Of a DNA stretch of 63,788 bases, positions 53,765 through 63,759 are shown in pieces. The stretch's first letter is position 1; every line of letters starts with the position of its first letter. A program made the position numbers and the translations under genes. The notes under the pieces were generated by a model. That model was not told the origin of the DNA. It made no database searches and saw only the letters and a program-made list of their open reading frames with translations. Source of the DNA: Leucoraja erinacea. Its lineage: Eukaryota. The stretch is from positions 62,001-125,788 of the forward strand of contig NW_026576298.1 in assembly GCF_028641065.1 (NCBI RefSeq), read 5' to 3'.

Positions 53765-53826
53765 TCACATCTGCACGCATCTCCTCGCGGGTTCTCCGTC
53801 GGCGTTTGCTTCTCGACGCACCTTCT
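53765..53826 (-). CDS. ANKDD1-family terminal coding exon (EKVRREANADGEPARRCVQM*)
   Basis: Minus-strand polypyrimidine tract with caacag| acceptor; phase 1 matches the upstream exon; ends in CaaX then TGA. Confidence 0.8.
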
Positions 53827-54439
53827 CTGTTGTATGGGGGGGGAGAAAGCAAATTGAGGGCGGGCGCGGCAACGGAGTTTGCGATAGAACTTCGCTCACG
53901 GCAGGCGGGAGATCGTGCCCGGCGGCAGACATGGAACGCAACAACATACGTGAAACGTGGAACAAAAGTGACGAGCGGCAAGCCCAGGAATAGAAACATA
54001 GACAATAGGTGCAGGAGGAGGCCATTCGGCCCTTCGAGCCAGCACCATGCGCCATTCATTGCGATCACGGCTGATCGTCCCCAATCAATAACCCGTGCCT
54101 GCCTTCTCCCCATATCCCTTCACTCCACCAGCCCCTAGAGCTCTATCTAACTCTCTTTTAAATCCATCCAGTGTTTTGGCCTCCACTGTGGCAGGGAATT
54201 CCACAAATTCTCTGGGTGAAAAAGTTTTCTCACCTCAGTCTTAAATGGCCTCCCCTTTATTCTAAGACTGTGTGTGTGGCCCCTGGTTCTGGACTCGCCC
54301 AACATTGGGAACATTTTTTCCTGCATCTAGCTTGTCCAGTCCTTTTATAATTTTATATGTTTCTATAAGATCCCGTCCCCACCTCATCCTTCTAAACTGC
54401 AGTGAATACAAGCCCAGTCTTTTCAATCTTTCCTCATAT

Positions 54440-55170
54440 AGAAACATAGAAAATAGGTGCAGGAGTAGAGGCCATTCCTGCCCTTCGAGCCTGCACCGCC
54501 ATTCAATATGATCATGGCTGATCACCCAACTCAGTATCCTGTACCTGCCCTCTCTCCATACCCCCTGATCCCTTTCGCCACAAGGGCCACATCTAACTCC
54601 CTCTTAAATATAGCCAATGAACTGTGTGGCCTCAACTACCTTCTGTGGCAGAGAATTCCACAGATTCACCACTCTCATTCTCATCTCGGTCCTAAAGGAT
54701 TTCCCCCTTATCCGTAAACTGTGACCCCTTGTTCTGGACTTCCCCAACATCGGGAACAATCTTCCTGCATCTAGCCTGTCCAACCCCTTAAGAATTTTGT
54801 AAGTTTCCATAAGATCCCCCCTCAATCTTCTAAATTCTAGCGAGTACAAGCCGAGTCTATCCAGTCTTTCTTCATACGAAAGTCCTGCCATCCCAGGAAT
54901 CAGTCTGGTGAACCTTCTCTGCACTCCCTCTATGGCAATAATGTCCTTCCTCAGATTTGGAGACCAAAACTGTACGCAATACTCCAGGTGTGGTCCCACC
55001 AAGACCCTGTACAACTTCAGTAGAACCTCCCTGCTCCTATACTCAAATCCTTTTGCTATGAATGCTAACATACCATTCGCCTTCTTCACTGCCTGCTGCA
55101 CCTGCATGCCTACTTTCAATGACTGGTGTACCATGACACCCAGGTCTCGTTGCATCTCCCCTTTTCCTAA
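54440..55170 (-). mobile_element. CR1 LINE 3' fragment
   Basis: ORF 54604..55176(-), CR1 RT C-terminus. Confidence 0.92.
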
Positions 55171-55265
55171 TAACAAGGATGTCCTTCCTCAAATTCGGAG
55201 AGCAAAACTGCACACACTACTCCAGATGTGGGAAAGGTTCTGGGCGATGAGAGGGATTGTAGTAC

Positions 55266-55397
55266 CTGCTAACTCGGTGTTTCCGATGTCAACCAAGCTC
55301 TCGTAGAGTTCCTTGATCGGGTGTTTGCCTTCACTGGCCACTCCATGAAGCCAGATCAGCAACATTCGGTAGCCATGCTCCTTGTAGCTGTCGCTGC
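55266..55397 (-). CDS. ANKDD1-family death-domain exon ([43 protein letters not shown])
   Basis: 132-nt exon with ctccag| acceptor and |gtacta donor, not in the ORF track. Matches the ANKDD1A/B motif [14 protein letters not shown] as recalled. Confidence 0.88.
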
Positions 55398-55409
55398 CTG
55401 GAGAAGGAA

Positions 55410-60660: not shown

Positions 60661-61559
60661 TACAAGGGTTTTTTGACACGTTGGTTTAGAAACTGTTGCC
60701 TATTTCCTTCGCCTCCATAGATGCTGCTTGAAACCCGCTGAGTTTCTCCAGCAATTTTTTGTACCTTTATTTTCTTTAGTGTTTAGGTACTGGTGATTAG
60801 TGTGTGTGCGTAAATAGTACAGTTGGTCATTCACAGTCTCTCAGTGTTGGGCATCGCTGTTTACTATTACTCCAAGTATAGGCCTCAAATGTCATATTGA
60901 GTATAGAAGTGGGATGTAATGTTAAAATTGTACAAGGCGTGGTGAGGCCAATTCTGGAGTATGGTGTGCAATTTTGGTCACCTAATTATAGGAAGGATGT
61001 CAACAAAATAGAGAGAGTACAGGAGGAGATTTACTAGAATGTTGTCCTGGGTTCAGCAACTAAGTTACAGAGAAAGGTTGAACAAGTTAGGGCTTTATTC
61101 TTTGGAGCGCAGAAGGTTACGGGGGGACTTGATAGAGGTTTTTAAAATGATGAGAGGGATAGACAGAAGTGGCGGTGGAAAAAGCTTTTACCACTGAGCG
61201 TGAGGGAAGATTCAATGCAAGGGGACGGACCTGAGAATAAGGATCTGGAAGTTTAGGGGTAACACAGAGGGGGTGTTGGACTTCTTTACTCAGAGAGTGG
61301 TAGCTGTGTGGAATGAGCTTCCAGTGAAGGTGGTGGAGGCAGGTTCGTTTTTATCATTTAAAAATAAATTGGATAGTTATATGGATGGGAAGGGAATGGA
61401 GGGTTATGGTCTGAGCGCAGGTATATGGGGGAAAGGGGATTGAGAATATGTGTTCGGGCCCGGACTAAGAAGGGTCGAGATGGACTGGTTCCGTGCTGGT
61501 CAAAATTGGTATTGGTTATGGTTATAGATGTGACGTATTTCCTCGTCGCAAGGATTATT

Positions 61560-62140
61560 CTAGTTTTGATCTCCAAATCTGAGGAAGGAAACTTATTGCC
61601 ATGAGCGGAGTGCCGAGGACGGTTAAACAGACTGATCTCATGGGATGTCAGGACTGTCTTATGAAGAAAGCCTGGATAGAGCAGGTTTCTCCTCTAGAAT
61701 TTGGAAGAATGAGAGGGGATGTTATAGAAACTTACACAATTTTTAAGGGATTGGGCAGGTTAGATGCAGGAAGATTGTTTCCGATGTTAGGGAAGTCCAG
61801 GACAAGGGGTCACAGCTTAAGGATAAGGGGGAAATCCTTTAAAACTGAGATGGGAAGAACTTTTTTCACACAGAGAGTGAGTGAATCTTGGAAACTCTCT
61901 GCCACAGCGTAGGTGAGGGGGGGGGGGGGGTGAGGGCCAGAGTTCATGGGTATATTTAAGAGGCGAGTTAGATGTGGCCCCTTGTGGCTAGGGGAGTCAG
62001 GGGGTATGGAGAGAAGGCAGGTACGGGATACTGAGTTGGATGATCAGCCATGATCATATTGAATGGCGAATGATGCAGGCTCGAAGGGCCGAATGGCCTA
62101 CTCCTGCACCTAATTCTATGTTTCTATGTTTCTATGTTGG
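61560..62140 (+). mobile_element. CR1 LINE 3' fragment (error-rich)
   Basis: ORF 61601..61912, with TTCTATGT tail. Confidence 0.8.
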
Positions 62141-62723
62141 ATGTATCATCTAGTTCCTTTAAAATCAGGGGTTGCCTCGCTGAGTTTGTCAAAGTGTGCG
62201 TTCCTTGTTTTGTGACAGTTATTGCATTTCTCTCTGTGTCAATAACTCACTTCCCTGACCAGTCCAACCTGTCTTATCTGGGAAATAAACCTTGAGCAGT
62301 CAATTTCCGATTTGCATTTACTAAAAGCGCGCTTTGCACAAACGTTACCGCCCAGAGGAGAGGAGCCAAGAATCATCGTGCGTCAGGTCACGGCGGCGCA
62401 GCGGGTGGAGCTGCTGCCTCACAGCGCCAGAGACCCGGCTTCGAACCTGACCTCGGGCGGGTGCTGTCTGTACGGAGTTTGCACGTTCTCCCCGTGANNN
62501 NNNNNNNNNNNNNNNNNNNNNNNNNNNNNNNNNNNNNNNNNNNNNNNNNNNNNNNNNNNNNNNNNNNNNNNNNNNNNNNNNNNNNNNNNNNNNNNNNNNN
62601 NNNNNNNNNNNNNNNNNNNNNNNNNNNNNNNNNNNNNNNNNNNNNNNNNNNNNNNNNNNNNNNNNNNNNNNNNNNNNNNNNNNNNNNNNNNNNNNNNNNN
62701 NNNNNNNNNNNNNNNNNNNNNNN

Positions 62724-63615
62724 TACACACACATAGACACATTCACACACACACACACACACACACACAAAGACACATTCACTCACACACACACACATAG
62801 AAACAGAACACATTGCACACACACACACTCAAAGACATACACACACACTTACATTCACACACACCGCACACGCACACACACACAAATATCGCACACATTC
62901 ACCCCCACACAGAAAGACACACTCAAAGACATTCACTCACACACATAGAAACAGACACACATGCACACACACACACTCAAAGCCAGACACACACACATTT
63001 ACATTCACACACAGACACGCACACACACACAAATATTCACACATTCACACCCACAGAAAGACACACACTCAAAGACAGACAGACACACACACACACATTC
63101 ACACACACAGATATTCACACTCACACACACGGAAAGACACACACACACACACACACACACACACACATTCACAGATACACACACACTCAAAGACAGGCAC
63201 ACACACACATTCACAGCCACACACTGATATTCTCACACACTCACACACAGATACACACAAACAAAAACACATATACATACGCACACACACACATAAACAC
63301 ACACATACTGTCACAGGCATCCAAGCACACACAGATATTTACACACATTCATACAGAGACACACACGCACACACACACATAGGTCCACAAGAANNNNNNN
63401 NNNNNNNNNNNNNNNNNNNNNNNNNNNNNNNNNNNNNNNNNNNNNNNNNNNNNNNNNNNNNNNNNNNNNNNNNNNNNNNNNNNNNNNNNNNNNNNNNNNN
63501 NNNNNNNNNNNNNNNNNNNNNNNNNNNNNNNNNNNNNNNNNNNNNNNNNNNNNNNNNNNNNNCACAGATGCATAGACACACAGAAACACTCACACACACA
63601 TACATATACACACAC
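62724..63615. repeat. (CA)n-rich compound microsatellite between assembly gaps
   Basis: Imperfect CA repeats; N runs at 62498-62723 and 63394-63562. Confidence 0.95.
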
Positions 63616-63666
63616 AAGCCCGGACGAGACAAACACCACCCCCACACGTATCGCAGAGCAACATAC

Positions 63667-63759
63667 GTGATCACAGATGTTGACGTCACATGTGGCGGAG
63701 ATCAGACACTGGACCAGCGTGGGGCTGTTGTGTTTCACCGCGAGATGGAGGCAGGGATC
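63667..63759 (-). CDS. ANKDD1-family ankyrin-repeat exon (DPCLHLAVKHNSPTLVQCLISATCDVNICDH)
   Basis: tgacag| acceptor and |gtatgt donor, phase 0. Ankyrin consensus LHLAV..N...LV..LI....DVN..D; resembles ANKDD1A PLHLAVRHNFPALVRLLI.SDSDVNA.D. Confidence 0.8.

What the first reader, a model, noticed from the sequence alone, without database searches (positions are those of the whole stretch)
53765..63759. ANKDD1-family gene linked to ANP32E: candidate third ohnologue absent from the human locus
Minus-strand exons encode ankyrin repeats, the ANKDD1-type death-domain motif and a CaaX end. From recall, human ANKDD1A lies on 15q22 near PLEKHO2, CA12, APH1B and ANP32A, and ANKDD1B lies on chr5. ANP32E sits in the paralogous 1q21 block (PLEKHO1, CA14, APH1A) with no ANKDD1 gene. 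An ANKDD1 gene ~33 kb from ANP32E therefore suggests a whole-genome-duplication paralogue retained in cartilaginous fish.
Basis: partly seen in the sequence, partly recalled or inferred. Interest (0 to 1): 0.7.

Follow-up and report, generated by a model that had tools for sequence, protein, structure and literature searches.

The report
Third ANKDD1 gene beside ANP32E
This is a spliced gene for a third member of the ANKDD1 adaptor-protein family, distinct from ANKDD1A and ANKDD1B and shared by sharks, rays, sturgeons, gar and bowfin, likely a leftover of the ancient vertebrate genome doublings that teleost fish and land vertebrates appear to have lost.

Summary
Four minus-strand exons encode ankyrin repeats, the end of a death domain and a CVQM tail, 33 kb from a true ANP32E; the contig ends inside the gene. 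A transcript contig splices the last two exons exactly and lacks the assembly's indels. In a rooted tree the gene falls in a third clade (100/99) with shark and ray 'ANKDD1A-like' proteins and with sturgeon, gar and bowfin proteins, apart from ANKDD1A (99/97) and ANKDD1B (100/100). Placing it in A or B is rejected (p-AU 1e-6 or lower). Whale shark has both A and this gene. It shares a scaffold with ANP32E in 8 of 8 elasmobranchs where both records were retrieved. The gene is not confined to cartilaginous fish. And this genome shows ANKDD1B but no ANKDD1A in five searches, so a reciprocal loss is possible. Branching order of the three clades is unresolved and PLEKHO1 could not be checked. Differentially kept ohnologues are a known class; I found no paper naming this one. 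New member of a known kind, modest interest.

The parts
63667..63759 (-). Coding exon, one ankyrin repeat (93 nt, phase 0 end); first exon left before the contig end
   Evidence: Pfam Ank E 3e-5; identical to P0002 residues 84-114; 3' junction at the same place as in the C3 ANKDD1B gene
59094..59195 (-). Coding exon, last ankyrin repeat into the linker helix; out of frame in this assembly
   Evidence: tblastn to P0002 147-179; both junctions match the C3 paralogue; transcript contig differs by small indels
55266..55397 (-). Coding exon, second half of the death domain ([11 protein letters not shown]...KHPIKELYE), phase 1 at both ends
   Evidence: Identical to P0002 237-279; spliced to the last exon in contig X1 record 1 with 0 differences
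53765..53826 (-). Last coding exon with CaaX-type end CVQM and stop; 3' UTR runs on to at least 53650
   Evidence: cysteine at -4 invariant in 19 of 19 aligned family members
2803..20644 (+). ANP32E, the syntenic marker, tail to tail with the ANKDD1 gene
   Evidence: Exon 12188-12337 is 90-100% identical to 10 of 10 hits named ANP32E or ANP32E-like; the [11 protein letters not shown] stretch matches only the ANP32E peptide of PDB 4CAY, weakly, E 0.32

Best explanation
The window holds the 3' end of a spliced gene that belongs to a third jawed-vertebrate ANKDD1 clade (here called ANKDD1C), likely an ohnologue from the vertebrate genome duplications, whose protein is predicted to be a farnesylated, membrane-tethered ankyrin-repeat and death-domain adaptor. 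Shown: exons, splicing, three-clade tree, linkage to ANP32E across elasmobranchs, shared intron positions. Inferred: it arose with the ANP32E/ITGA10 block (the loss-prone beta copy of chordate linkage group C), was kept in elasmobranchs and non-teleost ray-finned fish, and was lost in teleosts and tetrapods. Inferred by analogy only: the roughly 11 ankyrin repeats bind partners such as FIH1, as reported for human ANKDD1A, the death domain makes death-fold contacts, and the CaaX cysteine is prenylated.
For: Careful ML tree, 31 rows, invertebrate root: C 100/99, A 99/97, B 100/100, vertebrates 100/99; a 49-row quick tree gave the same C and B clades. AU tests reject: ray C + whale shark A, p 1e-62; all elasmobranch C + whale shark A, p 1.1e-6; elasmobranch C + chondrichthyan B, p 6e-175; sturgeon/gar/bowfin C + teleost A, p 7e-74. 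Whale shark has A (35.6 Mb scaffold) and C (10.8 Mb scaffold); Heptranchias and Pristis have B and C. ANP32E and C carry the same scaffold length in 8 of 8 species where both were retrieved, with neighbouring accession numbers in 3. G000 has four ANP32 loci (C1117, C33, C3, C29); the integrin upstream on C1117 has its closest paralogue (73%) 0.3 Mb from the C33 ANP32; ANKDD1B lies on C3 with another ANP32. 5 of 5 compared exon junctions match the C3 gene in place and phase. A published table lists CLG-C copies as GGA10, GGA25=LOC24, GGAZ, GGA28 (PMC10115646 supplement). Model of the Heterodontus orthologue: 11 helix pairs then six helices, mean pLDDT 89.7. CaaX end in 55 of 56 hand-picked family members.
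Against: The order of the three clades is unresolved (67/37); the expected (A,C) pairing is neither shown nor rejected (p-AU 0.52), and the lamprey protein nests inside A. G000 shows no ANKDD1A, so three loci were not seen in any one genome here. Linkage of the sturgeon, gar and bowfin genes to ANP32E was not tested. Cross-species linkage rests on equal scaffold lengths and accession order, not on read sequence. Absence from teleosts and tetrapods is only 'not found': 120 of 350 hits were listed and 150 of 282 representatives. Expression was thin in the raw-read runs laid (depth about 0-1.5 on the exons). CVQM has a polar residue at a2, less typical of CaaX (own knowledge). No function was tested for any C protein.
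Confidence: 0.85

Rival explanations
1. An early jawed-vertebrate single-gene or segmental duplicate that came to lie beside ANP32E, not a whole-genome-duplication copy.
For: Branching order unresolved; PLEKHO1 not seen (contig end); ray-finned synteny untested.
Against: Neighbouring ANP32 and integrin genes have paralogues on the chromosomes that carry the ANKDD1B gene and the SPG21/MTFMT region; introns are kept, so it is no retrocopy; timing falls between invertebrates and the shark/bony-fish split.
Confidence: 0.08
2. It is this lineage's ANKDD1A, moved and fast-evolving, since no other ANKDD1A is found in the genome.
For: No ANKDD1A in G000; NCBI names the relatives 'ANKDD1A-like'.
Against: AU p 1e-62; whale shark carries both genes on different scaffolds and its C copy groups with this gene.
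Confidence: 0.02
3. The elasmobranch and the sturgeon/gar/bowfin proteins are separate duplicates joined by long-branch attraction.
For: Both groups sit on longer branches than A; no synteny for the ray-finned genes.
Against: 100/99 under a mixture model, no end branch flagged as long; a histidine at position 467 of P0022 is fixed in 8 of 8 aligned C rows and absent from 10 A/B rows; joining them to teleost A is rejected.
Confidence: 0.03
4. The gene is a decaying pseudogene in this species.
For: One exon is out of frame in the window and two are not readable; few RNA reads.
Against: One 1,111-nt contig spans the last exons and the damaged exon with compensating indels; P0002 is an open 299-aa frame; orthologues are intact in sharks and rays.
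Confidence: 0.02

Closest known systems
ANKDD1A (human 15q22.31; orthologues in whale shark, teleosts, birds, mammals)
   Same: Ankyrin array, death domain, CaaX ending mostly in M (11 of 12 A rows, 17 of 19 C rows); 47-52% identity to P0022.
   Different: Separate clade; different locus; C has Y/F for H before RML and H for N in KHPIK; not found in G000.
ANKDD1B (orthologue on G000 C3:1.71-1.755 Mb)
   Same: Domain order and 5 of 5 compared intron positions.
   Different: Separate clade; 40-42% identity to P0022; CaaX ends in S in 20 of 20 rows.
[quoted passage not shown]
   Same: Same taxonomic pattern and likely the same origin on a loss-prone beta segment (passages).
   Different: I could not see that list of genes: the sheet held as SI Table 3 is a linkage-group table and one supplement is unreadable. 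Whether ANKDD1 is among the 24 is unknown. This gene also was not found in teleosts.

Membership tests
ANKDD1 family | Ankyrin array followed by a C-terminal death domain | tested here: met
   Pfam on P0002 and P0022; model with 11 helix pairs plus six helices. The gar protein P0309 missed the Pfam Death model but aligns over the domain.
ANKDD1 family | Groups with vertebrate ANKDD1 to the exclusion of invertebrate ANKDD1 | tested here: met
   Vertebrate clade 100/99
ANKDD1A orthologues | Nests in the A clade | tested here: not met
ANKDD1B orthologues | Nests in the B clade | tested here: not met
   a separate B gene lies on C3
2R ohnologue | Duplication after the invertebrate split and before the shark/bony-fish split | tested here: met
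   All three clades hold cartilaginous and bony fish
2R ohnologue | Lies in a paralogon whose neighbours have paralogues near the other copies | tested here: met
   ANP32 on C1117, C33, C3, C29; integrin pair C1117/C33; ANKDD1B on C3. Chromosome-level only; two neighbour families.
2R ohnologue | Not a retrocopy or tandem copy | tested here: met
   5 of 5 junctions shared; copies on different scaffolds
2R ohnologue | Topology ((A,C),B) expected from the alpha/beta pairing | tested here: inconclusive
   67/37 for (B,C); p-AU 0.52 for A+lamprey+C
2R ohnologue | PLEKHO1 adjacent, mirroring PLEKHO2-ANKDD1A (recalled human order) | not testable with these tools
   Contig ends inside the gene; no annotated vertebrate loci can be fetched
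2R ohnologue | Same locus in sturgeon, gar and bowfin | not tested
   Only scaffold lengths seen (7-36 Mb); no ANP32E record of these species retrieved
CaaX-prenylated proteins | Cysteine four residues from the C-terminus, conserved | tested here: met
   55 of 56 hand-picked rows
CaaX-prenylated proteins | Prenylation shown biochemically | not testable with these tools
   Search 'ANKDD1'+'farnesyl' gave 4 listings, none on topic by title (listings only)

The most novel reading that the evidence does not exclude
ANKDD1C is an unnamed third ohnologue, and skates have lost ANKDD1A while keeping ANKDD1C: a reciprocal ohnologue loss, the mirror image of teleosts and tetrapods, in a family that is probably farnesylated from amphioxus to human.
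Probability: 0.4. Interest if true: 0.45.

Novelty: new member of a known kind. Interest (0 to 1): 0.33.

Why it matters
It corrects a naming error that hides orthology: in the records seen, 'ANKDD1A-like' covers both this third gene and true ANKDD1B (Pristis, Narcine), and a chimaera protein named ANKDD1A falls in clade B. It adds a marker for the hard-to-assemble GGA25-like block in sharks and rays. If the missing ANKDD1A is a real loss, it gives a natural test of whether the ohnologues can stand in for each other. The family-wide CaaX end is a cheap, testable lead on a human gene family with little known mechanism. None of this is very surprising to a specialist: retained third ohnologues in cartilaginous and non-teleost fish are a described class.

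Tried and rejected
Looking for ANKDD1A in G000: protein searches with the window exon, P0002, a whale shark A death-domain stretch and whole whale shark A and a degenerate DNA pattern (1 match, the C3 gene) found only C1117 and C3. Local scans found no ANKDD1 exon in C33:11.54-11.94 Mb around MTFMT, C36:7.83-8.43 Mb around an antizyme gene and an RBPMS-like gene or C33:0.22-0.42 Mb around SPG21 (no N runs printed; the only ankyrin hits are a different, large-exon gene that looks like ASB7 by eye). PLEKHO2 and cellular PIF1 were not located (the PIF1 search was swamped by Helitron-like hits), so the true ANKDD1A site was not pinned down and an assembly gap stays possible. No run was on record as an RNA holder; this is no evidence either way. 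PDB has no structure of the collagen-binding integrin pair needed to name the upstream gene (best hits integrin alpha-1), so 'ITGA10' is inferred from its paralogue's position. Fold search returned only generic ankyrin proteins and DARPins. ESM Atlas gave ANKDD1A/B clusters and no separate C cluster, and nothing for the large neighbouring ORF. Earlier scan findings: none. No complex prediction was run, as no binding claim is made.

Full report
Observation. The window is G000:C1117:62001-125788 and ends at the contig end. On the minus strand four exons of an ankyrin and death-domain gene are readable: 63759-63667, 59195-59094, 55397-55266 and 53826-53765, the last ending CVQM-stop. The stored transcript protein P0002 (299 aa, unnamed) holds three of them letter for letter and has Pfam Ank and Death hits. 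The second exon is out of frame in the window, and two exons of P0002 are not readable there. One 1,111-nt contig of run X1 (RNA is the tool's guess) joins 53650-53826 to 55266-55400 with no differences and covers 59114-59190 with three letters fewer and one more; one read of X24 and a contig of X17 show similar indels. The frame break is therefore most likely assembly error. Raw RNA reads on the exons were few, depth about 0 to 1.5 in three runs sampled at 1-5%.

The neighbour. The gene at 2803-20644 is ANP32E: 10 of 10 hits to its second exon are named ANP32E or ANP32E-like at 90-100% identity, and its acidic-tail motif matches the ANP32E peptide of PDB 4CAY, the only hit, at a weak E 0.32. 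The two stops are 33.1 kb apart, tail to tail. Upstream on the same contig lies a collagen-binding-type integrin alpha gene.

Phylogeny. A search with the death-domain region of a shark relative gave 350 hits, of which 120 were listed. By best BLAST score among those 120 plus P0008, 78 are B-like, 24 A-like and 19 like the window gene; the 19 come from sharks, rays, two sturgeons, gar, bowfin and P0002. A search of 50%-identity representatives listed 150 of 282; none of the 144 new rows scored more than 18 bits better against this group than against A or B, and five served as named invertebrate outgroups. I picked 31 rows for the careful tree, leaving out redundant isoforms and most birds and teleosts. 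It gives three vertebrate clades: A with lamprey (99/97), B with the G000 C3 gene (100/100), and C with the window gene, elasmobranchs, sturgeon, gar and bowfin (100/99); their order is open (67/37). The window row fills only 21% of columns but sits with P0002. AU tests reject the ray genes as ANKDD1A (p 1e-62), a shark-specific duplicate of A (1.1e-6) or of B (6e-175), and the ray-finned genes as teleost-type A (7e-74). These groupings were named after a first tree had been seen, so the p values are not strictly a priori. A clade of A, lamprey and C is not rejected (0.52). Whale shark has both A and C; Heptranchias and Pristis have both B and C.

Synteny. ANP32E and the C gene carry the same scaffold length in 8 of 8 species where both records came back: Heptranchias perlo, Pristis pectinata, Chiloscyllium plagiosum, C. 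punctatum, Rhincodon typus, Stegostoma, Heterodontus francisci, Scyliorhinus canicula; accession numbers are neighbours in the first, third and fourth. For other species only one of the two was retrieved, so they were not counted. In G000, ANP32 has four loci (C1117, C33, C3, C29). The C1117 integrin's closest paralogue (73%) lies on C33, 0.3 Mb from that ANP32, and C33 also holds MTFMT and an SPG21-like gene, which I recall as ANKDD1A's neighbours in human. ANKDD1B lies on C3. Five of five junctions compared between the window gene and the C3 gene agree in place and phase. The supplement of PMC10115646 lists the four copies of chordate linkage group C as GGA10 (1-alpha), GGA25=LOC24 (1-beta, place in skate marked uncertain), GGAZ and GGA28; PMC7269912 reports that beta segments keep under half as many genes as alpha (passages); PMC10013865 pairs GGA28 with GGAZ (passages). 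That human 1q21 corresponds to GGA25 and 15q to GGA10 is recalled. A frog paper shows anp32e, plekho1 and vps45 in one region (10.1101/120212, passages).

The searches score only their best candidates and PLEKHO2 was not located, so loss and assembly gap cannot be told apart.

How it likely works. A model of the Heterodontus orthologue has 11 helix pairs, a flexible linker, a six-helix domain and a disordered tail (mean pLDDT 89.7). The tail cysteine is invariant in the 19-row alignment and present in 55 of 56 hand-picked rows across A, B, C and invertebrates. CaaX ending in M or S points to farnesylation (own knowledge). Human ANKDD1A binds FIH1 through its ankyrin part (PMC6318269, passages), and its death domain scored with CASP12 and NLRC3 CARDs in an unconfirmed screen (PMC8564539, passages). 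I therefore read ANKDD1C as a membrane-tethered adaptor; every functional step is inferred.

Novelty. Searches for ANKDD1A with ANKDD1B (0 papers), ANKDD1 with ohnolog (0), 'ankyrin repeat and death' with paralog and chondrichthyan (0) and ANKDD1 with shark (4 listings, none on topic by title) found no description; some searches were seen as listings only, apart from the papers named above. The library lacks most subscription papers. PMC10115646 reports 24 ohnologues kept in chondrichthyans and ray-finned fish (passages); its gene list was not in the sheets held, 'ankdd1' occurs once in the searched file as an expression-table row, and one supplement could not be read, so prior notice there is possible. 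PMC11406177 supplements had no hit (supplements only). The proteins are already in NCBI as 'ANKDD1A-like'. Verdict: a real third paralogue, likely an ohnologue, new member of a known kind, interest 0.33.

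Noticed in passing
window 43722-51075 (+): A very large GC-rich coding-like stretch between ANP32E and the ANKDD1 gene, rich in Pro, Ser and Thr, with short tandem repeats and several frame changes (open frames of 268, 1524 and 503 aa). No Pfam family and no Atlas hit. In C. punctatum one gene number is skipped between the ANP32E and ANKDD1C records, which may be this gene.
   Followed up: partly
window 30794-30994 (+): An isolated non-repeat stretch with coding-like composition, possibly an upstream exon of the large gene.
   Followed up: no
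G000:C29:2968125-2968274: A fourth ANP32 locus (58% to the ANP32E exon) besides those on C1117, C33 and C3; may be another retained ohnologue, on the contig that also holds an antizyme gene.
   Followed up: no
L004-L008 (G000:C1117:1-46000, minus strand): Collagen-binding-type integrin alpha gene head to head with ANP32E, likely ITGA10.
   Followed up: partly
G000:C33:220001-420000 and C36:8.0-8.31 Mb: The gene block recalled around human ANKDD1A is broken up here: SPG21-like sits beside CERS3-like and ASB7-like genes, MTFMT beside an aminopeptidase N-like gene 11 Mb away, and RBPMS-like and antizyme genes lie head to head on C36. Names other than MTFMT, antizyme and TRIP4 are by eye.
   Followed up: partly
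P0077, P0092, P0116, P0126: Database names disagree with the tree: a Callorhinchus 'ANKDD1A' and Pristis and Narcine 'ANKDD1A-like' are clade B; a lamprey 'ANKDD1B' groups with A.
   Followed up: yes
G000, many contigs (L067-L074): At least 151 PIF1-type helicase matches, several in open frames of 800-1700 aa with near-equal scores, suggesting a young Helitron-like family.
   Followed up: no
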